From: Deltaproteobacteria bacterium
Lineage (GTDB): Bacteria; Bdellovibrionota_F; JAHFAK01
Reading direction: 5' to 3'
Assembly (NCBI GenBank): GCA_023250585.1
Contig: JAHFAK010000001.1
Span: forward strand, 232-64,231
Length of the DNA: 64,000 nucleotides
The notes under the pieces were generated by a model. That model had not been told where the DNA came from, made no database searches, and saw nothing but the letters and a program-made list of their open reading frames with translations. How positions within the stretch are numbered: position 1 is the stretch's first letter; each line of letters opens with the position of its first letter. Shown piece after piece: positions 3,153 to 64,000 of this stretch. The position numbers and the translations under genes were made by a program.

Positions 3153-3187
3153 GCAAGAAAATTGATAAGTCGAAATGTTTTGATTGA

Positions 3188-5104: not shown

Positions 5105-5113
5105 TGGTATAGC

Positions 5114-6859
5114 CTATATCGAAAAATCAATATACCCCTCTTCTTTCAGATAGTAAAGGATATGAGCAACAGCTTCATGAACATCTATAGTTGTTGTATC
5201 AAGAACAATTTCTGGTTGTTTTGGTATTTCAAAAGGATCACTTATTCCCGTAAAATCTTTCAGATCTCCAGAACGGGCACGTGCATAGAGCCCTTTACGA
5301 TCACGCTCTTCACAGATAGTAAGAGGCGTTGAAACGTACACTTCAATATAGGCTCCATAGTGAGAAATAAGTGCCCTATTTTCTTGTCTAATATGTTCAT
5401 GAGGGGCAATGGGAGCACAGAGCACAATACCACCGTTTTTAGTAATTTCACTTGCTACAAATCCAATCCGTCGAACATTGATTTCTCGATGCTCTTTGGA
5501 AAACCCAAGTTCATTAGACAGGTGTTTTCGAACAATATCCCCATCTAAGAGAGTTACATGTCTTCCGCCATTTTCCCGCAATTTTGCATAGAGTGCTTTT
5601 GCTATCGTTGATTTTCCTGAACCAGAAAGGCCCGTGAAAAAAAGAGTAAAACCCTGTTCTTTCTTGGGAACATAGACTTTTCGTAACTCTTCTATAACTT
5701 CAGGATAAGAAAACCATTCTGGTATCTCTTCTCCTCTTTTCAAAAGATTTCGAAATTCTGTTCCGGAAAGTGTAAGCATGGTAGAATTTTTGGGAACTGA
5801 ATTCTTCGGTACACAGCGGTCTAATTCTTTACAGTAAACCATCTCTTGGAAAGGTATAATCTTAATTCCAATTTCTTTCTCACATGTTTTAACGTATTCT
5901 TGGGCTTCATAAGGTTCGTAAAAGTGATCTCCATTTATTTTTTCCCCCGGTTCCGCATGATCACGCCCAACAATAAAATGAGTACACCCATAACTTTTAC
6001 GAATCAAAGCGTGCCATAGGGCTTCTCTTTTACCTGCCATACGTATTGCTAATGGAAGAACTCGTAATAATACTGTATCTTTTAAATATTTTTCTGATAT
6101 GATTCTATAACAACGAACACGAGTATGATAATCAATATCATCTGGTTTTGTTATTCCTACAACGGGATTGAGAAGGACATGTCCTTGTACTTCATCACAT
6201 GCACGGAGTATAACTTCAACATGAGCTCGATGGAAAGGATTACGTGTTTGGAATCCAATCACTCGATTCCATCCATATTTTTGTAATTCCTCTTTTACTT
6301 CTTGTGGAGTCTTTCGCAGATCTTGAATATCGTAATGTTTTGGAAGCTCAACACATTCTATTCTCCCACCGCAATAGTACTCTTGCGTCTGATTAAAAAG
6401 ATATGAAACTCCTGAATGCTCAAGGGACGTTGTTCCAAAAATACACTGAGCTTCTTTAAGTTTATCGGGTTTCCAAATATCCTCTATATGAAATACAGCA
6501 AGAGGAACTCCTTCTTCATCACAAAGGGCAACTTCACTCTTTGTTTTTAGAGAACGTACTGTATCAGATGATATATCAAAAACAATAGGTATAGGCCATA
6601 GAGCTCCGTTATCTAAACGAGCATTGGTCAAAACAGAATAATAATCCTTTTGAGAGAGATACCCTTCCAAGGGATTAAAACTTCCATTCATAAGCATCTC
6701 GAGATCACAGAGTTGCCTTGTATTTAAATGAATTTGTGGAAGTTTCTTCGCGTATGAGAGAAGTTCTTTTCTCGAAGTCATAGTATTTTTGAAAATTTGC
6801 GTTGGTTTTCTTTCAATGCTTTCGATCATTATTCCCCGAGTATTACGATAAATATCCAA
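5114..6859 (-). CDS. bifunctional sulfate adenylyltransferase (ATP sulfurylase) / adenylylsulfate kinase (PAPS synthesis)
   Basis: ATP-sulfurylase motifs FQTRNPFHRAHVE and GRDHAEPG. C-terminal APS-kinase P-loop FFTGLSGSGKSTIAKAL. N-terminal PUA-like region. Start may instead be the Met 10 codons downstream (MIESIERK). Confidence 0.9.
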   Translation of the reverse strand: MDIYRNTRGIMIESIERKPTQIFKNTMTSRKELLSYAKKLPQIHLNTRQLCDLEMLMNGSFNPLEGYLSQKDYYSVLTNARLDNGALWPIPIVFDISSDTVRSLKTKSEVALCDEEGVPLAVFHIEDIWKPDKLKEAQCIFGTTSLEHSGVSYLFNQTQEYYCGGRIECVELPKHYDIQDLRKTPQEVKEELQKYGWNRVIGFQTRNPFHRAHVEVILRACDEVQGHVLLNPVVGITKPDDIDYHTRVRCYRIISEKYLKDTVLLRVLPLAIRMAGKREALWHALIRKSYGCTHFIVGRDHAEPGEKINGDHFYEPYEAQEYVKTCEKEIGIKIIPFQEMVYCKELDRCVPKNSVPKNSTMLTLSGTEFRNLLKRGEEIPEWFSYPEVIEELRKVYVPKKEQGFTLFFTGLSGSGKSTIAKALYAKLRENGGRHVTLLDGDIVRKHLSNELGFSKEHREINVRRIGFVASEITKNGGIVLCAPIAPHEHIRQENRALISHYGAYIEVYVSTPLTICEERDRKGLYARARSGDLKDFTGISDPFEIPKQPEIVLDTTTIDVHEAVAHILYYLKEEGYIDFSI

Positions 6860-7679
6860 GGACGTAAATCACTTTGTGATGGGATACAACCTCTCCGTGT
6901 CTTATAGATTGTGGCTCATAATAGGGAGCCATCATATCATTAATCTCTGAAGGGAGCGGTGCAAGCTTCCCAAAGAAAATTCTTTTTAAAAACTCTTTAC
7001 CTTTCATAGTTTTGGGAACAAGATGAAATCGTACTGCTGTCTGTTTAATTAACGAAATAAGATATGCTTTGAGTGATCCAGTATCTACGGGGTATGCTGC
7101 CTTACTTTCTGCTTTAAAACCAAACTTTTCAAGGAGATCTACAAGCTCAGTCGCAGAAAAATACTTTTTACTAAAGGGACTAGGATTAAAATCTGGCCAT
7201 TCTTTATTTGCCGAGCAAATGATTAAAGTACCTCCTTTACGAAGTACGCGTTTTGCTTCCATTAAAAATTTTTTCGGCTGTTCAAAGTAATAAATTGCTT
7301 CATAAAGAATAAGCACATCAAAGGTATTGTTTTCAAAAGGTAAGTGATGCGCATCTATGCTAACTACCTGAATACTATCCCTGTCTTTATACTGTTTTTT
7401 TGCAATTTCTACATTGCAAGGATCAATATCTCCTCCAACTACTTTTTTTGCCTGTGTTGCCAGATATCCTAATCCCTGCCCAGTACCACATGCAACTTCA
7501 AGAACATCTTTATTCTGACAAAATCGAGCAGCAAAGCGATACCGGGTGTAAAGCATCGAAAGCTGCTGTTCTGATGCGCCAATACCCGGTGCTTCTGTTA
7601 TCGAGTTATAATTGGCGGATATATTACTTGTTTCCATAGAATGTATGTACCTTTTCACAAACGTACGTAACCTGATCAT
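6843..7679 (-). CDS. class I SAM-dependent methyltransferase
   Basis: Motif I VLEVACGTGQGLGYL, an acidic residue after beta-2 (GGDID), and a Methyltransf_11-like layout. Confidence 0.75.
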   Translation of the reverse strand: MIRLRTFVKRYIHSMETSNISANYNSITEAPGIGASEQQLSMLYTRYRFAARFCQNKDVLEVACGTGQGLGYLATQAKKVVGGDIDPCNVEIAKKQYKDRDSIQVVSIDAHHLPFENNTFDVLILYEAIYYFEQPKKFLMEAKRVLRKGGTLIICSANKEWPDFNPSPFSKKYFSATELVDLLEKFGFKAESKAAYPVDTGSLKAYLISLIKQTAVRFHLVPKTMKGKEFLKRIFFGKLAPLPSEINDMMAPYYEPQSIRHGEVVSHHKVIYVLGYLS

Positions 7680-8739
7680 TGGTCAATTCTGTGGTTAGGG
7701 GCAACATCAATACACGTTCAAACATTCGTTCAGTTCGTGGAAGTTTATAGTGAGTAAGGCCGAGTGTTTTAAATTGATGTACTCCCTTTCCTCCCCACGG
7801 GATCATAATTTCAATTCCATTACTGCGTAAATGTTCAACTAAGCCTAAGCGATTTTCGGCTTCGATTTCATAATTTTGGTACATATCAAAATGATCGCTT
7901 TCTTTCGAAGGATTTGGTGGAAGATGAACCTGTTTCAGACGAGAAAGATTATCATAATAGAGTTGTGCAATTTCTCTACGTCTTGTTACCCATTGAGGAA
8001 ATAATTTCAATTTCATATCTAATACCGCTGCTTGAACATTATCAAGGCGACAGTTATATGCCCATGCACTCACTTCTCCGGGAATCCCTCGACCATGATC
8101 GCGAAGCGAACGGACTTTTTGAGCAATCTCTTCGCTATTGGTTGTTAATGCTCCTGCATCTCCAAACGCACCAAGCGCCTTTGCAGGATAGAAACTAAAA
8201 CACCCAGCTACGCCAAAAGATCCTCCTCGCTTTCCTTTAAATTCTCCACCCAGAGCCTGAGCTGAATCTTCAATCACTATGAGATTATGTTTCTGTGCGA
8301 TTGCAAGAATCGTATCCATTGTACATACCCGTCCATTTAAATGAACAGGAATAATTGCTTTCGTTTTTGGAGTAATTGCTTTTTCAATGAGATCTACATT
8401 CATGGTATGATCATCACTAATATCAATTAAAACCGGCGTAGCACCTACCATATGAATTGCTTCAGCTGTTGCTACAAAAGTGTGAGAAACAGTAATAACT
8501 TCATCTCCTGTTTTAATACCTGCAGCTCGCATCGCTAGGTGGAGCGCATCGGTACAATTACTCAAACCAACTGCATATTTTGTTCCTACATATGCTGCAA
8601 GATTTTTTTCAAAATTTTCAAGTTGATGACGAAGCATGAGATCCCCATTTGAAAGACAGGCTTCGATCTCTTTCATCATTTCTTTACCCCATTTTTTATA
8701 TTGCTGTCGATAATCAACAAAACGTACGTTCCATTCCAT
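7624..8739 (-). CDS. DegT/DnrJ/EryC1/StrS-family PLP-dependent sugar aminotransferase
   Basis: NCTDALHLAM, DEVITVSHTFVATAEA, and the PLP-lysine region FSFYPAKALGAFGDAGA. Size 371 aa, typical of NDP-keto-sugar aminotransferases. Confidence 0.85.
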   Translation of the reverse strand: MEWNVRFVDYRQQYKKWGKEMMKEIEACLSNGDLMLRHQLENFEKNLAAYVGTKYAVGLSNCTDALHLAMRAAGIKTGDEVITVSHTFVATAEAIHMVGATPVLIDISDDHTMNVDLIEKAITPKTKAIIPVHLNGRVCTMDTILAIAQKHNLIVIEDSAQALGGEFKGKRGGSFGVAGCFSFYPAKALGAFGDAGALTTNSEEIAQKVRSLRDHGRGIPGEVSAWAYNCRLDNVQAAVLDMKLKLFPQWVTRRREIAQLYYDNLSRLKQVHLPPNPSKESDHFDMYQNYEIEAENRLGLVEHLRSNGIEIMIPWGGKGVHQFKTLGLTHYKLPRTERMFERVLMLPLTTELTNDQVTYVCEKVHTFYGNK

Positions 8740-8742
8740 GTT

Positions 8743-11164: not shown

Positions 11165-11319
11165 GGCCGTGATTTATATTACACTTAAGAAGAATGTGTA
11201 AAGAAAAAAGTATTTGGGGTCTATAATCTCAAAATTCTCGTTAAAAAACAATATATCAATAGTAAACGATCATAATTTATATTCTTGCAAAATCATAGCG
11301 AGTTACCTACTATTTCCTA
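11165..11319. promoter_or_regulatory. divergent AT-rich intergenic region between the minus-strand locus and the only internal plus-strand gene; likely carries promoter(s)
   Basis: 155-nt non-coding gap flanked by divergent start codons. No specific -35/-10 assignment attempted. Confidence 0.3.
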
Positions 11320-22891: not shown

Positions 22892-22900
22892 ATTCTATTA

Positions 22901-24505: not shown

Positions 24506-24540
24506 ATACTATTATTGTATATACTCTTAAAAAATTCTTA

Positions 24541-29147: not shown

Positions 29148-29149
29148 AA

Positions 29150-30274: not shown

Positions 30275-30288
30275 ATTTTCTCATGATG

Positions 30289-32036: not shown

Positions 32037-32062
32037 ATTAATTCCTTTCGTAAAGAGCATTA

Positions 32063-35668: not shown

Positions 35669-36262
35669 TTATACAAGAAAAGAAATTTCTTGAGCTATTC
35701 TATGAGTATCACGTTGACCAATGATACGATTATAAACTAAAGATACTTTCTTGGCAGTTTTTGTCTCAAGATCATAACTAAGACAACCAACAATTGGTTT
35801 ATAATAAACATGAAGCGTACAGGCACGACGATTGTTAATTGCAGGATTCTCTAATTGATGAATCCCGATCTCATCATCAATATAAGAAACGTCTCCCCTA
35901 TTATACGTTTCTTGAAGTAATGGTGTAAGGTCGCCTTTAAAGTCAATGGATTTTACATAAACATAATTTTTACTCTCTATAGTCCCTCGTAGAACAGTCA
36001 TACAACAATGCTGCCCTTCATGATCATGAATTGGTGTTTTTTGCCCTGGTTCCCAACATAGAATAAGTATTTCAAAAAATTCATTTTTAAAAATAAGATT
36101 CCGGGTATAATGAGATTGATGAAAATAATATAAATTTTCCAAGGAACATTCAAAAAGTTTATATTGATGCATGAGTTCTAAAATTCTTTCATTTTCTATA
36201 GCTAAGGATGGAGAGAATAATCGAGAAATTTTCTGAATAAATTCTCTCAGTTGAGTTAGCAT
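35669..36262 (-). CDS. cysteine-dioxygenase-type-I-like cupin (thiol dioxygenase family)
   Basis: ILILCWEPGQKTPIHDHEGQHCCMTVLRG closely parallels mammalian CDO [29 protein letters not shown] (the 3-His iron site HxH...H). Confidence 0.7.
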   Translation of the reverse strand: MLTQLREFIQKISRLFSPSLAIENERILELMHQYKLFECSLENLYYFHQSHYTRNLIFKNEFFEILILCWEPGQKTPIHDHEGQHCCMTVLRGTIESKNYVYVKSIDFKGDLTPLLQETYNRGDVSYIDDEIGIHQLENPAINNRRACTLHVYYKPIVGCLSYDLETKTAKKVSLVYNRIIGQRDTHRIAQEISFLV

Positions 36263-36373
36263 ACAATATTTTCTACAATATTATAGGAAAATTATTGTTC
36301 ATTTTTTATAGCTTTAATTAAAATATCATCAGCGAACAAAGAAATTTTTCTATAACCAAATCCGATCTCCTAG

Positions 36374-38353: not shown

Positions 38354-38373
38354 TCGTAACTACCTCCAATCAT

Positions 38374-39564
38374 CTATTTCCCATGAAAGTAGGTGACTTT
38401 TTTTCTCTTACCATCCCAATGAATATCGGGAATGAGAACCTCTTTCTTTGCTTCTATACGATCTCGATATTTAATAAGATCCTGTAACATGATATGAATC
38501 TCTGCTTCCATATCTTTTGTTGGTTGATAGCCTAGTTCTAGTAGCTTTTTATGATCGGGTTTATAGTAATGTTCTTCCGCTTCATACCGTGGATTTTCAA
38601 CATTCTTAACTTCTACTTTTAATCCCAGATCTCTTCCTACACTTTTTACTTTTAAGGCCAATTGTGTAATATCATATACTTCTTCAAACTGATTGAAGAC
38701 TCGATATTCTCCTTGTGCAGGAGGATTTTCAATAACAAGCGTTAAACACTGGATTGAATCTTTCAGAGGCAAGAAACCCCGTTTTTGATGACCCTTTCCA
38801 AATGGAGAAAGTGGTTGATCAACTACAGCTTGGCAACAGAAACGATTGATAGCTGTTCCAAAACACTGGTCAAAATCAAGTCTCGTCAGCAAACGATCAT
38901 CTTCGTTCATTTCAAGAATACGCGAACCATATACTATTCCTTGCATAATATCAGAAGAACGAAGTCCCCAAATACGACAGGCAAGCATGACATTATTGCT
39001 ATCATGTACTTTACTTTGATGGTACCAACTACCCGCTTGCCGAGGAAAAGGAAGATTTTCTTTTCGACCACGATATTCAATCTCAAAAAACCCTTCAGGA
39101 ATATCTATGTTTGGTGTGCCGTACTCCCCCATAGTTCCCAGCTTTATAAGATGACCTTGTGGTGTTATATTCTTCATAGCATAGAGGACATTAAGAGTAC
39201 CTACAATATTGTTTGTCTGCGTCCACGCAGCATGTTTAGCATCAATCATACTGTAAGGAGCAGATGGATTTTCGCCTAAATGGACAATGGCTTCAGGTTT
39301 GAAATCTCTGAATATCTGTTCCACAAAATCGTAATGAATAAGATCCCCCTTAGAAAAAAAGAGTTCCTTTTTAAAGTGATCCTCAAAAGCTTTCAGACGT
39401 TCTGGCATTTCGTGAATAGGGAGAGCAGAATGGGAATCCATTTCACTCACACATTCTCGACGTGAAAAATTATCTATTCCTCCTATGGTATAACCTTTCG
39501 AAGCAAGACGTAGTGCAAGAGACCAACCTAAATATCCATCAATACCTAAAATAAGAACTCTCAT
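38374..39564 (-). CDS. sqdB: UDP-sulfoquinovose synthase
   Basis: Collinear with plant SQD1 and cyanobacterial SqdB: MRVLILGIDGYLGWSLALRL (SQD1 VMVIGGDGYCGWATALHL), GENPSAPYSMID, KLGTMGEYGTPNIDIPEG, YHQSKVHDS, FGTAINRFCCQAVVDQPL, RVFNQF, NPRYEAEEHYY. Confidence 0.9.
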   Translation of the reverse strand: MRVLILGIDGYLGWSLALRLASKGYTIGGIDNFSRRECVSEMDSHSALPIHEMPERLKAFEDHFKKELFFSKGDLIHYDFVEQIFRDFKPEAIVHLGENPSAPYSMIDAKHAAWTQTNNIVGTLNVLYAMKNITPQGHLIKLGTMGEYGTPNIDIPEGFFEIEYRGRKENLPFPRQAGSWYHQSKVHDSNNVMLACRIWGLRSSDIMQGIVYGSRILEMNEDDRLLTRLDFDQCFGTAINRFCCQAVVDQPLSPFGKGHQKRGFLPLKDSIQCLTLVIENPPAQGEYRVFNQFEEVYDITQLALKVKSVGRDLGLKVEVKNVENPRYEAEEHYYKPDHKKLLELGYQPTKDMEAEIHIMLQDLIKYRDRIEAKKEVLIPDIHWDGKRKKVTYFHGK

Positions 39565-55812: not shown

Positions 55813-57366
55813 TTATTGTTTAGGTAAATACAACTGAAGGCTTTTCATAAAATCACCAGTAGAAATTTCTTCTTTCAATTCATAATTGCGAGTAATTGAT
55901 TCCATCAAAGTTGGAATATAAGGAGCTATTACTTTTGACATGTTCTTTTGTGCAAAAAACCTTCCTTCTTCAAGAACAATGATGGAATATTTTTTAGCTT
56001 CAATATTATTTTTCAAAATTTTTTCGTTTGCCAAATGATGTGTTTCAACAAATGTTTCATCTAAGCTGGGTTTGAACGCATACATCTCCATATTAAGCCG
56101 TGGTTCATTAATTATTGTTTCATTTGCTAAAACTGGAGTAAATGAAAGCATAACTCCTCTTTGGTTGTGTGTATATGAATTAATTTTTGCCCCAACTTTT
56201 CTAATAATTGCAAGGTCAGATTGAAAATAATTAGTTTTTAAAAACTCTCCTGTTGAAGCAAGAGGCGCTCCTAAAAATAGTAAAAAAAACAATATAAAAA
56301 CATTTGGCGTCCGTGGTCCGGATTGATCCATTAATTTATTAATTAAAGCTAAACATAAAATCATGATAAATGGGAAAGTATAGAGTTTTGTTGGCGGATA
56401 ATCAGCTATAGTTTGATAATAAAATGAAAAACTGAGTAAAATCATTATAGAAACATAAGAAAATGCTACGGTATGCTCAGAAGATAATTTTTTTTCGTAA
56501 TTCTCTTTATTTTTTTTGTCTTTCAGCCAGGAAAAAGCGAGATATCCCATAGAAAAAAAGGCCAAAATATTATAAGGATACAAACTGTCAAACTCTTCGA
56601 ATCTTAGATTCAAGAAAGTACGTACTATCGATGAAAGGTTCTTGTTATCTATTTTTACTGAAGACTGATCAATATTAAATCGAATAGTATCGAAGAAAAT
56701 ATTTATATCTCCAAAAAAAATTGAATACTTAAAAATATAACAAAGCCCAATAAACGTTGCTGCAAAAATTGCGCCAAGAATGGCAAAATCCTTTCGAAAT
56801 TTAATACAAAGAATTATAACGAGACCGAGAATAAACATAGTCTGATAATCAACAAGATAACGATTTGAAATAAGGAAAAAATTAATCAGAAGAAACCAAA
56901 ATACTTTCCAATGTTTTTGCCAGGAGCTGAGAAGAACTAATAATGAAAGAGTTCTCAATAAAGCATTCAAAGAATATGTTGTATTTGTTAAAAAACTATA
57001 TAATCCCATCGGAATTAAAAATGAAGTATAACTGAGTATAATCGACTGAATATTGCTAAATAATTTATATACAACAAGAGCCTGAATATTGATGAGTAAA
57101 ATAAAAAATACTAATGAAATAATTCTTCCTGTTAAAAAAGAAGCCCCAAAAATTTTAAATAAAGTTCCATAGAGCTCAATATGTAATGGCAATCGATGAT
57201 AGAAAAAATCGATATAGGGATACATTCCTTTGGAAAATAGCAATGCTCCATGATAATACCAATTTTCATCGTTCCAAAATCGACAATGATAGATCCAGAA
57301 AAAACCAAACAATATAAAAAATAAATTAATCCCTAGAAAAAGAAAAACTTTTGACTGTTTTATCAT
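55813..57366 (-). CDS. large polytopic membrane protein of unknown function (possible GT-C/O-antigen polymerase-like)
   Basis: 517 aa, at least 11 TM helices, soluble C-terminal about 120-aa domain. No motif recognised. Confidence 0.4.
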   Translation of the reverse strand: MIKQSKVFLFLGINLFFILFGFFWIYHCRFWNDENWYYHGALLFSKGMYPYIDFFYHRLPLHIELYGTLFKIFGASFLTGRIISLVFFILLINIQALVVYKLFSNIQSIILSYTSFLIPMGLYSFLTNTTYSLNALLRTLSLLVLLSSWQKHWKVFWFLLINFFLISNRYLVDYQTMFILGLVIILCIKFRKDFAILGAIFAATFIGLCYIFKYSIFFGDINIFFDTIRFNIDQSSVKIDNKNLSSIVRTFLNLRFEEFDSLYPYNILAFFSMGYLAFSWLKDKKNKENYEKKLSSEHTVAFSYVSIMILLSFSFYYQTIADYPPTKLYTFPFIMILCLALINKLMDQSGPRTPNVFILFFLLFLGAPLASTGEFLKTNYFQSDLAIIRKVGAKINSYTHNQRGVMLSFTPVLANETIINEPRLNMEMYAFKPSLDETFVETHHLANEKILKNNIEAKKYSIIVLEEGRFFAQKNMSKVIAPYIPTLMESITRNYELKEEISTGDFMKSLQLYLPKQ

Positions 57367-57986
57367 AGAATAAATTGAATAGAAACGATTTGCGTTTCCA
57401 GATATTTTTCGGGCATTTCTTGAAAAATCTCAATGTTTGCAGATTCTTGTAATTCATGCTCAATCTTCTTAATTTCATCTTGTGCTAAATAAAGCAAAAG
57501 ACGCCCCGTTTTTTTAAGATATTGTGGAGATTGCTTAATAAATAAAAGAATCAATGAAAGCCTTTCTTGTCCAAAGAATAATTTTACAAATGGAATTGCC
57601 ATTCCCACGAGCAGCGGATGTCTTCTTACAAAACTACCTATATGATTTATAAAGGCATTATTCGGAATTCTTGGTGGATTGAAAACAATAAGATCATAAG
57701 TCGCTTTTACATGATCAAAGAGAGAAGAGTAATAGATATTCAAAGCTATACCATTTCTTTGAGCATTCTCTCTTGTATTTTTGAGAGCCTTTTCATTCAC
57801 ATCAACAGCATCTACATCAAAACCAAGCTTTGCAAGATAAATCGCAATATAGCCTGTGCCTGTCCCCATATCAAGAGCTTTCCCACGTGGAAACAGAGAA
57901 GCTGTTTTAGCTAACAGAAAAGTATCTTCTGCCGGTTGGCAGACTCCGGGAAATTCTATAATTTTAATTTCATCTTTGATCGACAT
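57363..57986 (-). CDS. class I SAM-dependent methyltransferase (small-domain / HemK-like, NPP motif)
   Basis: KALDMGTGTGYIAIYLAKLG (motif I) and LIVFNPPR (motif IV (D/N)PP) typical of N-methyltransferases. Confidence 0.65.
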   Translation of the reverse strand: MSIKDEIKIIEFPGVCQPAEDTFLLAKTASLFPRGKALDMGTGTGYIAIYLAKLGFDVDAVDVNEKALKNTRENAQRNGIALNIYYSSLFDHVKATYDLIVFNPPRIPNNAFINHIGSFVRRHPLLVGMAIPFVKLFFGQERLSLILLFIKQSPQYLKKTGRLLLYLAQDEIKKIEHELQESANIEIFQEMPEKYLETQIVSIQFIL

Positions 57987-57991
57987 ACATC

Positions 57992-58837
57992 TTAAATGAG
58001 CGTTACATTAAATTTTCGTACAACGTCTAATGTCTCCTTAGCCGTTATAGCGCGAAGTTCTTCCTCTCGCATGTCGGTCCAAAAATCATACTCTTTAAGA
58101 TCATTATCAACATATCCGGGATGGCAGACTATTTCAGAAACACCTTGAGGGATATTTTTTATATAATGATACAGCGCTTCTTTATAGTATCCCTTAGGAA
58201 CATAGCCCACACCAAAGACATGCCCCGCGTTATTCAAATTACTCATAGGACGCTGTAATGGAGATGCAATTTTAGAAAGAATCAACTGTTTCACAAATCC
58301 AATATATATTCCTTTTCGAAACAGAATTTGTTTTTTATAGAATGATCCTCTCCATAATCCTAAAGAAACACTTCGGATTCTACGGATTCCAAACCGCGAA
58401 GAAAGTCCCAAAAGCACTCGTCCAATTGCAGGATGAAAATGAATATGCCGATGTGAATCTATATGTTCTAGATTAATTCCGCTTTCAATCACTCTTTCAA
58501 TTTGTGCACTGAATTCCTTCTCAACTTCTCTTAATGAAATACGTCCTAAGAAAAGTCGAGACATAAAACGAGAAAGCGAATAAAAAGTATTATTCTTATC
58601 AAGAAGGCTTGAGATTTCTCTAGGAGAAGATAGAGAGCTCCCACACGTAATATTTAAATGAAGACCTACCGATAAATCAGGTTCCTTCTTGAGCAGTTGT
58701 ACACTTTTCTCAAAGCCTGGTATATTAGACATCAATGAAGTACTTCTCACAATTCCATTGCGAAAACATTCAATGATACCTGCGTTAATTCCCTCAGAAA
58801 TACCAAAATCATCTGCGTTTACAATGAGTTTTTTCAT
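57992..58837 (-). CDS. YdjC/ChbG-family carbohydrate deacetylase
   Basis: MKKLIVNADDFGISEGINAGIIECFRNGIVRSTSLM is nearly the family consensus. Downstream HLNIT and HID...H metal ligands. Confidence 0.75.
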   Translation of the reverse strand: MKKLIVNADDFGISEGINAGIIECFRNGIVRSTSLMSNIPGFEKSVQLLKKEPDLSVGLHLNITCGSSLSSPREISSLLDKNNTFYSLSRFMSRLFLGRISLREVEKEFSAQIERVIESGINLEHIDSHRHIHFHPAIGRVLLGLSSRFGIRRIRSVSLGLWRGSFYKKQILFRKGIYIGFVKQLILSKIASPLQRPMSNLNNAGHVFGVGYVPKGYYKEALYHYIKNIPQGVSEIVCHPGYVDNDLKEYDFWTDMREEELRAITAKETLDVVRKFNVTLI

Positions 58838-59580
58838 TTATAATAACCCTGATGATCGTTTCGTTTAACTTTCCAAAGATCTCGCAACATTCTGACTGTA
58901 TCTTGAAAAAAATTCACTGTTGATTTTTCATGAAAATAACGAAATCGTATGGGGACTTGATGAATAATAAATCCTAATTTTTTTGCAACGTACAAAGCTT
59001 CAACGTCGAAACTAAATCTCTCCAACGTTTGTTTTGTAAAAATAGCCTGTGCTGCTTCCTTTCGGAAACCTTTCAATCCCGCTTGTGTATCAAGCAATTC
59101 GGGTAAAAGCCACAGCCGCACTAATAGATTAAAAAAGCGGCCCATTAAATGTCTTGTATAGAGATAACGAAAGAAAACCGGACTGATTTCATAGCGAGAT
59201 TCCGGAAGTACACGGCATGCAATGGCAACATCTGCGCCCTTCTCTAACACCTCCAGAATTCTAAAAATTTGATCGGGCTGATATGCTAAATCTGAATCGT
59301 TAAAGACAAGATACCGTCCACGAGCTTCTCCAAATCCATGTCGAATTGCATATCCCTTACCACGATTTTTTCTGTTAGAAACAACTTTAATGTTTTGGTA
59401 CTTCTCTGTAATACGGTTCAATACAGAAAGAGAATTATCATAACTACCATCATCCACGAGAATCAATTCCCATGGATAATGCTGTTTTTCTAACTGTTCC
59501 ACTAATAAAGCAACATTTCCTTCAATAAACTCTGAAGCATTAAAAACTGGAACTACAACTGATAAGTGTATAGTACTCAT
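58834..59580 (-). CDS. GT2-family glycosyltransferase (small, DPM1/ArnC-like)
   Basis: LSVVVPVFNASEFIEGNVALL and LILVDDGSYDNS. Confidence 0.8.
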   Translation of the reverse strand: MSTIHLSVVVPVFNASEFIEGNVALLVEQLEKQHYPWELILVDDGSYDNSLSVLNRITEKYQNIKVVSNRKNRGKGYAIRHGFGEARGRYLVFNDSDLAYQPDQIFRILEVLEKGADVAIACRVLPESRYEISPVFFRYLYTRHLMGRFFNLLVRLWLLPELLDTQAGLKGFRKEAAQAIFTKQTLERFSFDVEALYVAKKLGFIIHQVPIRFRYFHEKSTVNFFQDTVRMLRDLWKVKRNDHQGYYK

Positions 59581-59590
59581 ACTAATCTAT

Positions 59591-60511
59591 CTAACTCCAA
59601 TCATGATCATTGTAAAAAGATCGAGAGATAGGCTCTACCTCACGTCGAATTCGGTCTATCTCAGCAGCAGTAAGTCTACTTTTCCAAATATCAACTGTTT
59701 TACGACTATCTCTTCTACTATTATCTTTTTTTCCATGAAATTCTACTACATTTAATGGAGAAGTATAAAGATTCATTATCTCTTCTGTTTTCTTTGTAAA
59801 TGATAGATTGAATTTCTCGTAAAGTTTTCTAAATTCCTCAATAGGTGCAGAGGCTAAATCCTCATGTCTAACAAAAATCCATTCAGGATGTTCCCTTGTA
59901 AGAATTTCAACCGTTCCATACAGAGCTTTCCATTGAAGAATTCCCATACCTATAATATCAGGTCTTTGAGGATGATTTTGAATTTCTTTCTCAAATCTAA
60001 ATAAATATCTTTTCATTAAATTTTTCTGATCAAGAAAATGATTAAAGTTAAATCCCCAATTAAGACGTTTTAAGCTACTTACGAAGGATGCTGGGTGTCT
60101 TATAACAACGATAACATGCGTATTAAATTTTTTAGCAAACCATTCGGTAGAAAAAAGACCAATAGGTTCGATAAAAATCTGCGGAAATCTAGAATTAAAC
60201 TGGCGAAACAGAGATCTAAATTTTCTTTTGGTTACACGTCCAAAATCTCGGAGTGATTCTATTTTGCTCAGGCTTTTAAAAAAATCATACTTCATATCCA
60301 CACACTTTTGGATATAGGGATAAAATTGCTTCTCGTTTTCCTGAGAGATATAGGTGTACATCCATGGAAAAGGTTGACATCCAATCTCTGAAGCAACATT
60401 AAAAATTTCCTCATCTCGCATAAGAAATTCTCCTGAGATAGAAAGCATTCTTCCAACCCAGCTTGAACCAGATCGATGTGATCCTGTAATGTAGATATGT
60501 TTTTTTATCAT
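59591..60511 (-). CDS. PAPS-dependent sulfotransferase, Stf0-like
   Basis: 5'-phosphosulfate-binding loop YITGSHRSGSSWVGRML (Mtb Stf0 ICSTQRSGSTWLCELL). 3'-phosphate-binding region VVIRHPASFVSSLKR. 306 aa. Confidence 0.75.
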   Translation of the reverse strand: MIKKHIYITGSHRSGSSWVGRMLSISGEFLMRDEEIFNVASEIGCQPFPWMYTYISQENEKQFYPYIQKCVDMKYDFFKSLSKIESLRDFGRVTKRKFRSLFRQFNSRFPQIFIEPIGLFSTEWFAKKFNTHVIVVIRHPASFVSSLKRLNWGFNFNHFLDQKNLMKRYLFRFEKEIQNHPQRPDIIGMGILQWKALYGTVEILTREHPEWIFVRHEDLASAPIEEFRKLYEKFNLSFTKKTEEIMNLYTSPLNVVEFHGKKDNSRRDSRKTVDIWKSRLTAAEIDRIRREVEPISRSFYNDHDWS

Positions 60512-60530: not shown

Positions 60531-62711
60531 TTATGCTACAAAAATTTCCTCTCCTCTCTCAATTTCCTCTAATAAAAAAGTTGATATCTCTTTTCTCATA
60601 AACCAATCAGGAAGCTCTTTTCCTGATTTGAGCATTTCACGCGCTTCACTGCCACTGATTAAACGCATATTTTTTTCATCATGATTACATTTTTCTACAT
60701 AGCGATTGCACTGCTGACAGTAAGAAATAGTGTCAAAAAATACAGGCGTTATTCCCAAATCCCCCATACTCTTAAATAGTTCTTGAGAAGCATGAGTACC
60801 ATAGAAATTACCAACGCCTGTATGATCTCTTCCCATAATAAAATGAGTACATCCAAAGTTTTTCCTACAAAGAGCAGTAAAAACAGCCTCACGTGGTCCC
60901 GCATATCGTGAATAGGTAGAAAATGCTCCGATCAATACTTTTTCTTTAGGGTAATAAGTATTAAGCAACTTCTCATAACTTTGTATAATAGCATGACTGA
61001 CAAAATCACCTTTCTTTTTGATACCTATTACTGGATGAACAAAAAGGCCATCGCATGAAGTACGTTCCAGCGCTAGAATTTGTAATGTTTCATGGGCTCT
61101 ATGAACAACATTTCTTGTATGGAAACCAACAACTCGGCTCCATCCTTTATGTTCAAAAAGGGCCCGCGTTTGCAAAGGAGTGAATTCATATTGTTTGTTC
61201 ATACGTGGAAGACGTTTTATCAATTCAACTTTTCCACCAATGAAATAATTGTCTTTTCCGAAGAGAGCTGCAACTCCTGGATGCGCTTTATCTTGTGTTC
61301 CAAACATCATTTGAGATAATTCCGTGAGGTCATAGGGGTAAATTTCCTCTATCTCAATCGTAGCAACAATATCCTGCGAGGATTGAAGAGCTAAACTCAC
61401 TATAGTTCCTTCATGAAATTTTGTTGCTTCTTCTTTACTCACTTGCAATAAAATAGGAAGAGGCCATGCAACCCCGTTAGAAAGTTTATAATCATGCAAA
61501 ACACTCGTAAGTTCTTCTCGATTCATAAAACCTTGTAATGGCGAAAAAGAACCAAGAGCAATTTGCTCTGCATCCATCAGTATTTTTTCGTCAACAATTA
61601 AGCGTGGGTACTGATTAAGCAGAGTTTTATCACACTCTTGAGCAATACGATACGTAAGTATTCCTCCATGTGGCTTGATCAAAAATCGAGAATGATCATC
61701 CAGAAGTTTTCCAAAGGAAACTTTTCGATTGGAGCTCTCAAATTCATTTATAAGAGAAACAACAACCGCTGCACAATCAACGGGATGTTGACCAATAGCA
61801 GTTTCAGCAGCGAGGACTAAACCGTCAGCTCCATCAAGTAAAGTATTGATAACATCGTTAACTTCTGCTCGTGTTGGTTTCCTCTTTTGTGTCATAGACT
61901 CTAATAAGTTTGTAGCTACATAAATCGGTTTACCAGCAGAATTTGCTCGTTGAATAAGAAGCTTCTGAAGAAAAGGAATTTTTTCGATGGGAACTTCGCG
62001 AGAGAGATCTCCTCTATCGATGAGGAGCGCGTCAGCAAGCGTCACAATAGCATCAACATTTTTTACACCCTGCCTGCTTTCAATTTTTGCAATAATTCTG
62101 GCCTGTGCACCAACGAGTTCTCTCATTTCCGAAACAGCTTCTTTACTCGATGCAAAGGAAAGAGCAAAATTGGTTATGCCATATTTTTTGGATAACGTCA
62201 TGACTTCTTTGTCTTTTTTAGAAAGAACAGGAAGCATAATATCTTGATCAACAGTAACTGCTTTATTACTTCCGACAATACCTCCGCAAAGCACTCGTGC
62301 TTTTAATGAACCACCATTTTTTTCAATGACCTGTAAAAAGAGAGAATTAAAATCAACATTAATGAGACTACCTATTTCTATTTTTTCTACTACAAATCCT
62401 GGAGTAAGTGAAATAGTATGTTCATCACAAATGATATTTTCACTTACAATATCAACTATATCTCCTTCTTTTAGATAAATTTCTCCGCCTTTTACACTTC
62501 TATTCCTAATTTGAGCTCCTTCGGTATCAATACATATTGGTTTTTTCGTGTATTGACCAATGGTCTGCATCATTTTTTCAGCTACATTGATATCAACATG
62601 TGAAAGATTAATACGAAAGAGATCTACTCCAAGCGCGTCTAAACGTTGAATAACAATTTTATCCAACGAAGCAGGCCCAATAGTTGCTAATATTTGAAGT
62701 TTTTTTATCAT
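60531..62711 (-). CDS. fusion protein: pyruvate-kinase catalytic (A+B) domain lacking the C-terminal allosteric domain + complete ATP sulfurylase (sulfate adenylyltransferase)
   Basis: Start refined to MIKKLQ (ATGA overlap with the upstream SDR). PK blocks: ATIGPAS, FRINLSH, IDTEGAQIR, IIAKIESRQG, LLIDRGDLSREVP, KPIYVATNLLESMTQKRKPTRAEVNDVINTLLDGADGLVLAAETAIGQHP. ATP sulfurylase blocks: FHTRNVVHRAHE, GRDHTGVG. Confidence 0.85.
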   Translation of the reverse strand: MIKKLQILATIGPASLDKIVIQRLDALGVDLFRINLSHVDINVAEKMMQTIGQYTKKPICIDTEGAQIRNRSVKGGEIYLKEGDIVDIVSENIICDEHTISLTPGFVVEKIEIGSLINVDFNSLFLQVIEKNGGSLKARVLCGGIVGSNKAVTVDQDIMLPVLSKKDKEVMTLSKKYGITNFALSFASSKEAVSEMRELVGAQARIIAKIESRQGVKNVDAIVTLADALLIDRGDLSREVPIEKIPFLQKLLIQRANSAGKPIYVATNLLESMTQKRKPTRAEVNDVINTLLDGADGLVLAAETAIGQHPVDCAAVVVSLINEFESSNRKVSFGKLLDDHSRFLIKPHGGILTYRIAQECDKTLLNQYPRLIVDEKILMDAEQIALGSFSPLQGFMNREELTSVLHDYKLSNGVAWPLPILLQVSKEEATKFHEGTIVSLALQSSQDIVATIEIEEIYPYDLTELSQMMFGTQDKAHPGVAALFGKDNYFIGGKVELIKRLPRMNKQYEFTPLQTRALFEHKGWSRVVGFHTRNVVHRAHETLQILALERTSCDGLFVHPVIGIKKKGDFVSHAIIQSYEKLLNTYYPKEKVLIGAFSTYSRYAGPREAVFTALCRKNFGCTHFIMGRDHTGVGNFYGTHASQELFKSMGDLGITPVFFDTISYCQQCNRYVEKCNHDEKNMRLISGSEAREMLKSGKELPDWFMRKEISTFLLEEIERGEEIFVA

Positions 62712-63490
62712 ATAATACTCCATCCTCCATCTACAACTAAATTATGTCCCGTAACATAGGCTGAGGCATCCGAAGCTAAGAAAATTGCTGCACCTACTAT
62801 TTCTTCTGCAGATGCCATTCGTTGTAACGGTGTTTTTTTAATATAATTTTTTACGAAACTTTGAGGTTGTGAATCAAAAATTCCACCAGGAGAAATTGCA
62901 TTTACTCTCACTCCATGGTTACCGTAATATGATGCTAAATATTTTGTAAATTGGATAACACCCCCTTTGATTGCGGCATACGCAGCTGGCATAGTCATAT
63001 CTGTTCCTTCATAGATTGAAAAATCAGGGGCAACAATTCCATAAATTGAAGCAATATTTATAATAGATCCTTTTTTTGCTTCTTTCATTATTTCGGTAAC
63101 TTTTTGGCAGCAGAGGCAATACCCATTTAAATGTTTATTGATATTCTCTTGCCACGAATTAAACGGAATTTTTTCAAATGATACTCCCCAATCTTTTGTC
63201 CGAGGATATGCATTATTTATCCATACATCAATTCGTCCTTCTTCTTTGAGAATTTGTGTTACTCCGTTAATAACAGATTTTTCATCGGCAATATCTAATA
63301 AAAGAAAGCGTGCAGTATAGCCATCTTTTTTTAATTCTTCACAAGCTCTTATCCCCTTTTCTTCATCGATCTCTGCGATGATCACTTGTGCTCCATACGA
63401 AGCAAATCCTCGGGCAAATGCTTTTCCCAAAAGGCCTCCCCCTCCAGTTATGACAGTTACCTTATGAGTTAAATCAAATAAATTTTTCAT
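62708..63490 (-). CDS. short-chain dehydrogenase/reductase (classical SDR)
   Basis: KVTVITGGGGLLGKAFA, NNAYP, YAAIKGG (YxxxK). Confidence 0.85.
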   Translation of the reverse strand: MKNLFDLTHKVTVITGGGGLLGKAFARGFASYGAQVIIAEIDEEKGIRACEELKKDGYTARFLLLDIADEKSVINGVTQILKEEGRIDVWINNAYPRTKDWGVSFEKIPFNSWQENINKHLNGYCLCCQKVTEIMKEAKKGSIINIASIYGIVAPDFSIYEGTDMTMPAAYAAIKGGVIQFTKYLASYYGNHGVRVNAISPGGIFDSQPQSFVKNYIKKTPLQRMASAEEIVGAAIFLASDASAYVTGHNLVVDGGWSII

Positions 63491-64000
63491 AGAGTTGTGT
63501 ATCCTTTCTCGATCAAAAATTCGACAAAGTGAAAATCAATCTCACGGTCTATATCAAAACCTGAAACATCCGGCATACAATACACAATTGAATTATCGGT
63601 GATGACCGATGTATTTTCTTTGAGAAAAAAATTCCGGGAATAAAAATAAATCGAGGCGTTCATATCATAAACTTTCGGAGCATCTTGCCTTCGATGAGTA
63701 GCATGCGTTAATGACTTTGAAAGATGCGCTCGTCCGTTTCGATCAAGTTCTACCATATTAAAATATGGATTTTTATGAGAAGGTACAACGCTAAATAAAT
63801 TTTCAGGTTTTTCTTTAAGAAATAACTGATAACAATTTTCCAAATCCTTTGTAGTTCTTAAAGGAGACGTAGCATCGAGATCAACGACTATATCGTACTT
63901 CTCATTAAATATTTTTTCGGATTCTAATACTGCATGATGAATGACGGCTAATTTATCCGCAGTATCACTTGCCAAATCTTTCGGACGCTCGAAAGGCACT
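63487..64000 (-). CDS. CMP-sugar (acylneuraminate/Kdo-type) cytidylyltransferase, C-terminal part; gene start lies beyond window end
   Basis: VVDLDATSPLRTTKDLENCYQLF and the later dimerisation region resemble the NeuA/KdsB CTP_transf_3 family. The N-terminal P-loop-like block is absent, so the ORF is truncated by the window. Confidence 0.55.
   Translation of the reverse strand, partial: VPFERPKDLASDTADKLAVIHHAVLESEKIFNEKYDIVVDLDATSPLRTTKDLENCYQLFLKEKPENLFSVVPSHKNPYFNMVELDRNGRAHLSKSLTHATHRRQDAPKVYDMNASIYFYSRNFFLKENTSVITDNSIVYCMPDVSGFDIDREIDFHFVEFLIEKGYTTL

What the first reader, a model, noticed from the sequence alone, without database searches (positions are those of the whole stretch)
5114..6859. 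Dedicated PAPS-generating enzyme plus Stf0-like sulfotransferase: evidence for a sulfated glycan as well
A bifunctional ATP sulfurylase/APS kinase (PAPS synthase) lies at the 3' end of the locus. An Stf0-like PAPS-dependent sulfotransferase (59591..60511; RSGSSW 5'-PSB loop, RHP...S 3'-PB region) lies at the 5' end next to the PK-ATP sulfurylase fusion. Stf0-type enzymes O-sulfate sugars (trehalose 2-sulfate in mycobacteria). With SqdB, the locus therefore encodes two different routes for placing sulfur on carbohydrate: C-S (sulfonate) and O-S (sulfate ester). The two sulfate-activation genes being housed inside the polysaccharide locus rather than the assimilatory cys operon argues that they serve glycan decoration.
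Basis: partly seen in the sequence, partly recalled or inferred. Interest (0 to 1): 0.7.

Follow-up and report, generated by a model that had tools for sequence, protein, structure and literature searches.

The report
PAPS supply and sulfotransferase in glycan locus
A large surface-polysaccharide gene cluster from an uncultured bacterium carries its own genes to make the activated sulfate donor PAPS plus a sulfotransferase, so it probably makes a sulfated sugar polymer, a known kind of arrangement with one uncharacterised twist (a pyruvate-kinase-fused ATP sulfurylase).

Summary
The genes exist as described. The ORF at 5114-6859 (minus strand; likely start ATG 6829, 571 aa) is a bifunctional ATP sulfurylase/APS kinase with intact catalytic motifs. 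It holds the only APS-kinase domain in the 64 kb window.

Comparative context supports dedicated sulfation:
- Relatives of the adjacent PK-ATP sulfurylase fusion have an APS kinase directly downstream in 33 of 72 loci, and a sulfotransferase within 2 kb in 44 of 83 loci.
- The closest PK-Sat relative (72% identity) reads PK-Sat, APS kinase, two genes, then this sulfotransferase family.
- Sat-CysC relatives sit beside sulfotransferases, PAP-phosphatase-like genes and sulfate transporters, not beside cysH or sulfite reductase.

The acceptor is unknown. The sulfotransferase always travels with nonulosonic-acid genes and a GT2/YdjC-deacetylase pair. I could not test whether other cys genes exist elsewhere in the genome. 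Dedicated PAPS genes in polysaccharide clusters are already documented, so interest is moderate.

The parts
5114..6829 (-). Bifunctional ATP sulfurylase / APS kinase (Sat-CysC, PAPS synthase), 571 aa from ATG 6829. The maximal ORF runs to a TTG at 6859. The sulfurylase part (PUA_2 + ATP-sulfurylase) lies at about 5678-6775 and the APS-kinase domain at about 5198-5656.
   Evidence: Pfam and NCBIfam NF004040, 843 bits. Aquifex aeolicus SAT/APS kinase 2gks, E 5e-171, with FQTRNPFHRAH, GRDHA, the P-loop GLSGSGKST and LLDGD aligned. Exact 571-aa product called in ENA contigs. It is the only APS-kinase-like sequence in the window by tblastn.
59591..60511 (-). Soluble PAPS-type sulfotransferase, 306 aa, from an uncharacterised family. 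It is structurally closest to the TPST / CurM / OLS sulfotransferases, not to Stf0.
60531..62723 (-). Pyruvate-kinase (A/B domains, no C domain) fused to a PUA_2 + ATP sulfurylase with a zinc-site motif. It is the second sulfate-activating enzyme and has no APS-kinase domain. PK lies at about 61776-62705 and Sat at about 60567-61679. Public gene calls start at 62711 (726 aa).
   Evidence: Pfam PK 1.4e-69 and ATP-sulfurylase 3e-78. PDB PK 2e28, E 1.7e-56. PDB ATP sulfurylases 8a8d, E 3.8e-101, and 1v47. PK catalytic residues are invariant, and the sulfurylase motif reads FHTRN / GRDHTG across 120 homologues. Neighbourhood statistics.
57992..59580 (-). GT2 glycosyltransferase (58834-59580, 248 aa) and YdjC-family deacetylase (57992-58837, 281 aa), directly downstream of the sulfotransferase. 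They neighbour this sulfotransferase clade in all four informative loci.
   Evidence: Pfam. Synteny in L004, L006 and L174.
55813..57986 (-). MTS/HemK-type methyltransferase (57363-57986) and a 517-aa polytopic membrane protein (55813-57366), possibly a GT-C-type transferase. Both are part of the conserved block.
   Evidence: Pfam MTS. No Pfam hit for the 517-aa protein, which has 7 hydrophobic segments. Homologues in L174 at 41-43% identity and the equivalent genes in L004.
62708..63999 (-). PtmA-like short-chain dehydrogenase (62708-63490) and the 3' part of a CMP-nonulosonate synthetase-type gene (63487-63999, cut by the window end). This is the edge of a nonulosonic-acid cluster that continues beyond the window.
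   Evidence: NCBIfam NF006619 and FlagModPtmA. In L001 the upstream genes are CTP_transf_3, TauE, GFO_IDH, NeuB and PglD_N.
38374..39564 (-). UDP-sulfoquinovose synthase (SqdB). It uses sulfite, not PAPS.
   Evidence: NCBIfam NF041015, 579.1 bits against a 575 cut-off.
35669..36262 (-). Cysteine dioxygenase type I, two genes downstream of SqdB. It is a possible sulfite source through cysteine sulfinate (my inference).
   Evidence: Pfam CDO_I, E 1.6e-23.

Best explanation
The locus carries its own cytoplasmic PAPS pathway for a glycan-modifying sulfotransferase.

Proposed steps:
1. Sulfate is adenylated to APS by two ATP sulfurylases: the Sat domain of the 571-aa Sat-CysC protein and the PK-fused sulfurylase.
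2. APS is phosphorylated to PAPS by the only APS-kinase domain in the window, the C-terminal domain of Sat-CysC.
3. The 306-aa soluble sulfotransferase next to PK-Sat transfers the sulfo group to a cytoplasmic-face intermediate of this polysaccharide pathway. The likely catalytic residues are Arg13 in the 5'-PSB, Arg138 and Ser146 in the 3'-PB, and Glu34 as the base.

The most likely acceptors are products of its conserved neighbours: a nonulosonic acid or its CMP-activated form, or the amino sugar produced by the GT2 + YdjC-deacetylase pair.

What is shown: domain identities, intact motifs, the sulfotransferase fold, a single APS-kinase domain in the window, and the conserved gene neighbourhoods.

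What is inferred: enzyme activities, the division of labour between the two sulfurylases, the acceptor, and that the pathway is dedicated rather than housekeeping.
For: - Domains and motifs. The query keeps the kinase P-loop GLSGSGKST and LLDGD, which the non-catalytic Penicillium chrysogenum domain aligned has lost (GYMNSGKD, LLGD).
- Only one APS-kinase domain lies in the 64 kb window.
- Sulfotransferase motifs and fold.
- Genes are tightly packed on one strand, with gaps from -118 to 54 nt except for three larger ones.
- PK-Sat neighbourhoods in 83 loci: an APS kinase is present in 44 of the 72 loci with room downstream, and directly downstream in 33 of those 72. A sulfotransferase-like ORF is present in 47 of 83 loci, and within 2 kb of PK-Sat in 44. 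Two representative neighbours were confirmed as Sulfotransfer_1.
- Three annotated examples from different phyla show PK-Sat followed by APS kinase, two of them with a sulfotransferase, set among NeuB, CTP_transf_3 and GFO_IDH genes.
- L175 carries a PK-Sat 72% identical to the window's, followed by a 151-aa APS kinase, then two genes, then a 56%-identical member of this sulfotransferase family. The window therefore looks like that module with the small kinase missing and Sat-CysC supplying the function.
- Sat-CysC relatives: L171 sits with a DHH phosphoesterase, Wzt, Sulfotransfer_1 and a pyruvyl transferase. L172 sits with TauE and Inositol_P. L173 (Kiritimatiella) sits with Inositol_P, a Na/sulfate symporter and UGDH. 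L065 lies 1.7 kb from a homologue of this sulfotransferase. None has cysH or sulfite reductase within 7-10 kb.
- Precedent: second copies of cysDNC plus sulfotransferases inside the capsule cluster of Vibrio sp. KMM 8419, which makes a structurally proven sulfated capsule (PMC11641403).
Against: - The rest of the genome is not available. These could be the organism's only sulfate-activation genes and also feed assimilation.
- The two closest syntenic loci (L004 and L006) keep the sulfotransferase block without any sulfurylase within 10 kb, so a local PAPS supply is not obligatory.
- Sat-CysC lies 53 kb from the sulfotransferase, and a plus-strand ORF (11320-12615) separates its sub-cluster from the rest, so co-transcription with the sulfotransferase is unlikely.
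- No PAP phosphatase (CysQ or DHH type) was found in the window.
- No member of this sulfotransferase family has been characterised. Its nearest solved structures act on protein tyrosine or acyl-ACP, not on sugars.
- Across 80 genome loci of the wider family, no window gene other than short-chain dehydrogenases (16 of 80 loci for each of the window's two) recurs near it.
Confidence: 0.68

Rival explanations
1. The housekeeping reading. Sat-CysC, and perhaps PK-Sat, are the organism's general sulfate-activation enzymes for cysteine and methionine synthesis and lie in the polysaccharide region by accident of gene order. The sulfotransferase simply draws on the general PAPS pool.
For: NF004040-type Sat-CysC is a very common family: 8000 candidates all scored E <= 1e-50, and many bacteria use it for assimilation (general knowledge). 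L004 and L006 show that this sulfotransferase block can work without local sulfurylase genes. The rest of the genome was not seen.
Against: No cysH, sulfite reductase or cysteine synthase lies in the 64 kb window or in the flanks seen. Having two sulfurylases in one glycan locus is hard to explain by chance. PK-Sat relatives are linked to APS kinases and sulfotransferases, not to reduction genes. Four Sat-CysC relatives sit in sulfation-type contexts.
Confidence: 0.12
2. One or both sulfurylases mainly feed the sulfonate branch. APS or PAPS would be reduced to sulfite for SqdB (UDP-sulfoquinovose synthase), so the sulfate-activation genes serve C-S rather than O-S chemistry.
For: SqdB is in the same locus and needs sulfite (established biochemistry of SqdB/SQD1). 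Two sulfurylases but only one kinase leaves one enzyme that produces APS only.
Against: No APS or PAPS reductase was found in the window. A cysteine dioxygenase two genes from SqdB offers a different sulfite route (my inference). PK-Sat relatives pair with APS kinases and sulfotransferases. An APS-kinase domain is unnecessary for an APS-reductase route.
Confidence: 0.1
3. The sulfotransferase modifies something other than a glycan: a protein or peptide tyrosine (RaxST/TPST-like), a lipid or a small metabolite. Its position in the locus would then be incidental.
Against: Identity to those structures is only 12-19%. The gene is embedded, with 10-19 nt gaps, between PK-Sat and a GT2. It keeps the same glycan-gene neighbours in four loci despite gene-order shuffling. 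In the wider family the commonest neighbours are GT2 enzymes (38 of 80 loci) and other genes that look envelope-related from sequence alone: large polytopic membrane proteins, a small membrane protein and a second sulfotransferase. No peptide-precursor or export genes of the rax type were seen.
Confidence: 0.1

Closest known systems
Aquifex aeolicus bifunctional SAT/APS kinase (PDB 2gks); NCBIfam NF004040
   Same: Same domain order (PUA-like, ATP sulfurylase, APS kinase) and full-length alignment at E 5e-171. QTRNPxHRxH, GRDHA, the kinase P-loop and LDGD are all present.
   Different: About 50% identity only. The kinase motif FSKEDR reads FSKEHR here. It is encoded inside a polysaccharide cluster next to PglF-, PglE- and PglC-like genes.
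Dedicated PAPS genes plus sulfotransferases in bacterial polysaccharide or Nod-factor clusters (second cysDNC copies in the sulfated-capsule cluster of Vibrio sp. KMM 8419, PMC11641403; rhizobial NodPQ/NodH, from my own knowledge)
   Same: The same logic: sulfate-activation genes co-located with a sulfotransferase and glycan-assembly genes. [quoted passage not shown]
   Different: Those systems use the GTPase-coupled heterodimeric CysD/CysN-type sulfurylase. This locus uses homo-oligomeric Sat-type enzymes, one fused to APS kinase and one fused to a pyruvate-kinase domain. No product structure is known here.
Tyrosylprotein sulfotransferases TPST1/2 (PDB 5wri, 3ap3) and the CurM/OLS sulfotransferase domains (4gbm, 4gox)
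   Different: Identity is 11-19%. The acceptors are different (protein Tyr, beta-hydroxyacyl-ACP). The genomic context here is a glycan locus.
Mycobacterial Stf0 trehalose 2-sulfotransferase (PDB 1tex, Pfam PF09037)
Zinc-site ATP sulfurylases of Methanothermococcus thermolithotrophicus (8a8d) and Thermus thermophilus (1v47)
   Same: Closest solved relatives of the sulfurylase half of PK-Sat (E 3.8e-101 and 4.7e-82). The Cys3His motif is conserved.
   Different: PK-Sat has an N-terminal pyruvate-kinase A/B domain. It also replaces the two sulfate-sandwiching residues family-wide: Gln to His in QxRN and Ala to Thr in GRDHAG (residue roles from PMC3779200).

Membership tests
Bifunctional sulfate adenylyltransferase/adenylylsulfate kinase (NCBIfam NF004040) | Whole-protein score above the curated equivalog cut-off (669 bits) | tested here: met
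   843.4 bits, profile positions 13-570 of 572.
Bifunctional sulfate adenylyltransferase/adenylylsulfate kinase (NCBIfam NF004040) | Catalytic sulfurylase loops QxRNxxHxxH and GRD | tested here: met
   FQTRNPFHRAH and VGRDHA align with 2gks and 1m8p. The roles of these motifs are from PMC3779200.
Bifunctional sulfate adenylyltransferase/adenylylsulfate kinase (NCBIfam NF004040) | A catalytic rather than degenerate/regulatory APS-kinase domain: Walker A GxxGxGKS/T and the LDGD Mg2+/APS motif | tested here: met
   GLSGSGKST and LLDGD are present. The regulatory P. chrysogenum domain shows GYMNSGKD and LLGD at the same positions. Enzyme activity itself was not tested.
PAPS-dependent sulfotransferase superfamily | 5'-phosphosulfate-binding loop near the N terminus and a 3'-phosphate-binding Arg...Ser motif | tested here: met
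   R13-S14-G15 and R138...S146 are invariant in 42 homologues. Arg replaces the Lys of cytosolic sulfotransferases, as in the TPST sequences aligned.
PAPS-dependent sulfotransferase superfamily | Sulfotransferase fold | tested here: met
Stf0 sulfotransferase family (Pfam PF09037) | Match to the family profile | tested here: not met
   Only PF13469 and PF00685 are reported, even at max E-value 10.
Stf0 sulfotransferase family (Pfam PF09037) | Stf0 as the nearest solved structure | tested here: not met
Tyrosylprotein sulfotransferase-like enzymes | Catalytic Glu base at a fixed distance after the 5'-PSB Arg | tested here: inconclusive
   Invariant E34 lies 21 residues after R13 and aligns with the second Glu of the TPST1 ...CGEE motif in the profile alignment. 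Its identity with the TPST catalytic Glu rests on my memory of TPST2 numbering. No peptide substrate or export genes were seen.
Dedicated (non-assimilatory) PAPS module of a sulfated-glycan cluster | Sulfate-activation genes co-located with a sulfotransferase and glycan-assembly genes | tested here: met
   for the window. The association recurs in homologous loci.
Dedicated (non-assimilatory) PAPS module of a sulfated-glycan cluster | A separate housekeeping set of cys genes elsewhere in the genome | not testable with these tools
   Only the window and up to 10 kb of flank on matching metagenome contigs could be read.
Dedicated (non-assimilatory) PAPS module of a sulfated-glycan cluster | A sulfated product | not testable with these tools
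   The organism is uncultured and known only from metagenome contigs.
UDP-sulfoquinovose synthase SqdB (NCBIfam NF041015) | Score above the equivalog cut-off (575 bits) | tested here: met
   579.1 bits over positions 1-383 of 384, only just above the cut-off.

The most novel reading that the evidence does not exclude
The PK-fused ATP sulfurylase, an APS kinase and a sulfotransferase may form a widespread, uncharacterised PAPS-generating cassette of nonulosonic-acid and surface-glycan clusters.

In this reading the intact pyruvate-kinase domain uses PEP to regenerate ATP from the ADP released by APS kinase. That would pull the unfavourable sulfurylase reaction forward without the GTPase that CysDN uses. 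The family-wide change of the two sulfate-sandwiching residues (Gln to His, Ala to Thr) would reflect altered anion handling.

The 306-aa sulfotransferase would then sulfate either a nonulosonic acid or the free amine produced by the adjacent GT2 + YdjC-deacetylase pair, giving a bacterial deacetylate-then-N-sulfate route analogous to heparan NDST.
Probability: 0.15. Interest if true: 0.65.

Novelty: new variant of a known kind. Interest (0 to 1): 0.4.

Why it matters
Sulfated bacterial surface glycans change charge, phage and host recognition, and have biotechnological value, but few bacterial polysaccharide sulfotransferases and their PAPS supply routes are characterised.

This locus adds a member of a large uncharacterised sulfotransferase family (at least 550 genomes). 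It also points to a recurrent cassette of PK-fused sulfurylase, APS kinase and sulfotransferase that I could not find described in the searchable literature. If confirmed, that cassette would be a useful genomic marker for sulfated nonulosonic-acid-type glycans in uncultured bacteria.

On its own, the co-location of PAPS genes and a sulfotransferase follows a documented pattern.

Tried and rejected
- **Single-sequence PDB search with the sulfotransferase.** It gave only chance hits. A profile of 42 homologues was needed to reach sulfotransferases.
- **Exact look-up of the TTG-start Sat-CysC and of the 730-aa PK-Sat.** Neither is in the collection. The ATG-6829 version was found.
- **tblastn of all 55 window proteins against 80 genome loci of the sulfotransferase family.** No conserved partner appeared beyond short-chain dehydrogenases (16 of 80 loci for each of the window's two). 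Only the two closest loci share synteny, so the wide family does not inform the acceptor.
- **Promoter and terminator scan of 2900-12800.** Counts equal the shuffled expectation (38 vs 35.1; 6 vs 5.8), so nothing can be said about transcription units.
- **Comparison of the TauE permease upstream of the window with the TauE next to a Sat-CysC homologue.** There is no significant similarity. A sulfate-import role for it remains a guess.
- **Taxonomy look-up of the closest syntenic MAG name.** The tool rejected it. The source organism stays unidentified. The best syntenic relative is 'Deltaproteobacteria bacterium RIFCSPHIGHO2_02_FULL_40_28'.
- **The 643-aa 'Sulfatase'-family protein (45205-47136) as a true sulfatase.** Rejected as unlikely, because it has no C/S-x-P/A-x-R motif.
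- **Literature searches for a PK-sulfurylase fusion.** Nothing relevant was found.
Full report
**Observation**

The window is an AT-rich stretch (31-40% G+C). It holds about 54 tightly packed minus-strand genes with polysaccharide-biosynthesis annotations. These include rmlABCD, two Wzx-type flippases, a Wzy-like protein, many GT2/GT4 enzymes, a PglC-like initiating transferase and PglF/PglE-like enzymes.

The ORF given in the finding, 5114-6859 (minus), is real.
- It carries PUA_2, ATP-sulfurylase and APS_kinase domains.
- It passes the NCBIfam equivalog NF004040 for the bifunctional enzyme, at 843 bits against a 669 cut-off.
- Public gene calls start it at ATG 6829, giving 571 aa. The TTG-start version is not on record.
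- It aligns end to end with the Aquifex aeolicus SAT/APS kinase (2gks, E 5e-171). The alignment shows the sulfurylase loops FQTRNPFHRAH and GRDHA, the kinase P-loop GLSGSGKST and LLDGD.
- The non-catalytic kinase-like domain of the Penicillium enzyme, in the same output, has lost the last two motifs.
- A six-frame search finds no other APS-kinase-like sequence in the window.
- The gene is the penultimate one of the strand. A PglF-like dehydratase follows after 9 nt, then a convergent TPR gene.

**The sulfotransferase**

The ORF at 59591-60511 (306 aa, no hydrophobic segment) has weak but significant Pfam matches to Sulfotransfer_3 and Sulfotransfer_1. It has no NCBIfam name.
- It has 296 detectable homologues in the protein collection and at least 550 loci in species-representative genomes. 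These are mostly Chloroflexota, Cyanobacteria and Actinomycetota, and almost all are annotated only as hypothetical or 'sulfotransferase'.
- In 42 aligned homologues, G10, R13, S14, G15, W18, E34, R138, P140 and S146 are invariant.
- An AlphaFold model built on that alignment is confident, at pLDDT 93.2 and pTM 0.91. Its structural neighbours are exclusively sulfotransferases.
- A profile search aligns the R13...E34 segment with the PRSGTT...CGEE segment of TPST1, which suggests an Arg/Glu catalytic arrangement. This is an inference.

The enzyme is therefore a PAPS-type sulfotransferase of an uncharacterised family. The Stf0 analogy, and the O-sulfation of a sugar argued from it, is not supported by sequence or structure.

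**The second sulfurylase**

The ORF at 60531-62723 lies 19 nt upstream of the sulfotransferase. It fuses pyruvate-kinase A/B domains to a zinc-site ATP sulfurylase.
- The PK part matches 2e28 at E 1.7e-56 and has no C domain.
- The sulfurylase part matches 8a8d at E 3.8e-101 and 1v47 at E 4.7e-82.
- The architecture is common. All 120 listed hits share it, and at least 549 metagenome stretches encode it.
- In 120 homologues the PK catalytic positions are invariant or nearly so. These are RxNxS, DT (Asp invariant, Thr 109/120), KxE, RGD and AT-N (Thr 119/120).
- The sulfurylase loop reads FHTRN (His 120/120) and GRDHTG (Thr 101/120).
- In characterised enzymes the corresponding Gln and Ala 'sandwich' the sulfate, and the loops are described as strictly conserved (PMC3779200). 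The nearest solved enzymes keep Gln and Ala.
- I have no explanation for this paired substitution.

**Comparative context**

This is the main support for a dedicated role.

*(a) PK-Sat.*
- In three annotated genomes from different phyla, a stand-alone APS kinase follows PK-Sat directly. All three lie among nonulosonic-acid-type genes (CTP_transf_3 in all three; NeuB, GFO_IDH or DegT in some), and two of the three also carry a sulfotransferase.
- I examined 83 PK-Sat loci in all. An APS kinase is present in 44 of the 72 that have room downstream, and is directly downstream on the same strand in 33.
- A sulfotransferase-like ORF is present in 47 of 83 loci, and lies within 2 kb of PK-Sat in 44. 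Two representatives were confirmed by Pfam.
- Nonulosonic-acid markers occur in 19 of the 46 loci of 12 kb or more.

*(b) The closest PK-Sat relative.* L175 (72% identity) reads PK-Sat, a 151-aa APS kinase, a GMC oxidoreductase, a 138-aa ORF, and then a 56%-identical member of this very sulfotransferase family. The window has the same module without the small kinase. The kinase domain of Sat-CysC, 53 kb downstream, is the only one available locally.

*(c) Relatives of Sat-CysC (55-58% identity).*
- One lies next to a DHH phosphoesterase, Wzt, a Sulfotransfer_1 protein and a pyruvyl transferase.
- One lies next to a TauE-family permease and an Inositol_P (CysQ-like) phosphatase.
- In Kiritimatiella glycovorans, one lies next to an Inositol_P phosphatase, a Na/sulfate-symporter-type transporter and a UDP-glucose dehydrogenase.
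- A Planctomycetota locus has a 53%-identical Sat-CysC 1.7 kb from a homologue of this sulfotransferase.
- None of these loci shows cysH or sulfite reductase.

*(d) Flanks of the window.* No reductive-assimilation gene occurs in the window or in the flanks read on matching contigs. Upstream lies a nonulosonic-acid cluster with PglD-like, NeuB, GFO_IDH, TauE and CTP_transf_3 genes. Downstream lie an MPI-cupin protein, PRPP synthetase and a cold-shock-domain protein.

**What is sulfated**

Gene order around the sulfotransferase is shuffled among the window, L004 (58% identity), L006 (53%) and L174 (51%). The company it keeps is nevertheless constant.
- Always present: a CMP-nonulosonate-synthetase-type gene, a short-chain dehydrogenase (a clear homologue of the window's PtmA-like enzyme only in L174), a 248-aa GT2, a YdjC-family deacetylase, a Glyphos_transf/Epimerase_2-like protein of about 510 aa and a sugar C-methyltransferase.
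- Usually present: an MTS-type methyltransferase and a polytopic membrane protein of about 510 aa.
- The GT2 + YdjC + large-membrane-protein trio resembles, from my own knowledge, the polyprenyl-phosphate amino-sugar modification systems ArnC/ArnD/ArnT and FlmF2/NaxD/FlmK.

The sulfotransferase is soluble and needs cytoplasmic PAPS. It must therefore act on a nucleotide-activated or lipid-linked intermediate at the cytoplasmic face.

The candidates are the nonulosonic acid and the deacetylated amino sugar. In the second case either O- or N-sulfation is conceivable. Nothing here discriminates between them.

In the wider family, at 35-40% identity, the commonest neighbours are GT2 enzymes (38 of 80 loci). 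Others are large polytopic membrane proteins, a small membrane protein, a second sulfotransferase and an MptE-like protein. Many of those loci are related Anaerolineales and are not independent observations.

**Relation to SqdB**

The locus does encode a UDP-sulfoquinovose synthase, so the 'two routes for sulfur on sugar' remark is reasonable at the gene level.

SqdB needs sulfite. No APS or PAPS reductase is present in the window, but a cysteine dioxygenase lies two genes away. It could supply sulfite through cysteine sulfinate, which is my inference. The sulfonate branch may therefore be independent of the sulfate-activation genes.

**Verdict**

The interpretation, a dedicated PAPS supply for glycan sulfation, is the best-supported reading (about 0.68). 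It remains unproven because the rest of the genome and the product are unknown.

The pattern has direct precedent: second cysDNC copies with sulfotransferases in a Vibrio capsule cluster whose product is a proven sulfated polysaccharide (PMC11641403). The finding is therefore a variant of a known kind.

The parts that are new are the uncharacterised sulfotransferase family and the recurrent cassette of PK-fused sulfurylase, APS kinase and sulfotransferase. I found no literature on that cassette.

Noticed in passing
window 60531-62723 (minus); homologues P0121-P0240; loci L086-L088, L091-L170, L175: The pyruvate-kinase/ATP-sulfurylase fusion is a widespread, uncharacterised architecture. Its PK catalytic residues are intact and it has no PK C domain. 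The two residues that sandwich sulfate in known ATP sulfurylases are replaced family-wide: Gln to His (120/120) and Ala to Thr (101/120). It is usually followed by a small APS kinase and lies next to sulfotransferases.
   Followed up: partly
window 35669-39564 (minus): SqdB (UDP-sulfoquinovose synthase, just above the NCBIfam cut-off) sits with a WbuX-like amidotransferase and a type I cysteine dioxygenase inside an O-antigen-like cluster. The dioxygenase could supply sulfite through cysteine sulfinate. No APS or PAPS reductase was seen.
   Followed up: partly
L001 1-7025 (beyond window position 64000): The same-strand cluster continues upstream with a nonulosonic-acid set (PglD-like acetyltransferase, NeuB, GFO_IDH oxidoreductase, CTP_transf_3). 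A TauE/TSUP-family permease is embedded in it, two genes before PK-Sat. It is a possible sulfate or sulfite transporter, but it shows no similarity to the TauE next to a Sat-CysC homologue.
   Followed up: partly
window 55813-59580 (minus): A conserved block of GT2 (248 aa), YdjC deacetylase, an MTS/HemK-type methyltransferase (with an NPPR motif) and a 517-aa polytopic membrane protein with no Pfam match. It resembles the polyprenyl-phosphate amino-sugar modification systems ArnC/ArnD/ArnT and FlmF2/NaxD/FlmK.
   Followed up: partly
window 22166-32764 (minus): An unusual sub-cluster: two B12-binding radical SAM enzymes, a PhyH/Rieske fusion, an FkbM methyltransferase, a short-chain dehydrogenase, a 3-dehydroquinate-synthase-like sugar-phosphate cyclase, a GAPDH-like protein with an N-terminal extension, a weak CDP-alcohol phosphatidyltransferase-like protein and a nucleotidyltransferase. 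Together these suggest a cyclitol or heavily tailored sugar.
   Followed up: no
window 45205-47136 (minus): A 643-aa 'Sulfatase'-family (alkaline-phosphatase superfamily) protein with no hydrophobic segment and no C/S-x-P/A-x-R motif. It is probably not a sulfatase. It is conserved next to the sulfotransferase block in L006 and L174.
   Followed up: partly
window 8743-10562 (minus): A split transketolase pair (N-terminal and pyrimidine/C-terminal halves as separate genes) lies between a PglC-like initiating transferase and a DegT aminotransferase, in the same sub-cluster as Sat-CysC. It may add a two-carbon branch to a sugar.
   Followed up: no
window 11320-12615 (plus): The only plus-strand ORF inside the cluster (431 aa, no Pfam match). 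It separates the Sat-CysC sub-cluster (3188-11164) from the rest and is also called as a gene in the ENA contig L089.
   Followed up: no
window 33968-35665 (minus): A 565-aa protein whose only match is a DUF4215 repeat, embedded between a GT4 glycosyltransferase and the cysteine dioxygenase.
   Followed up: no
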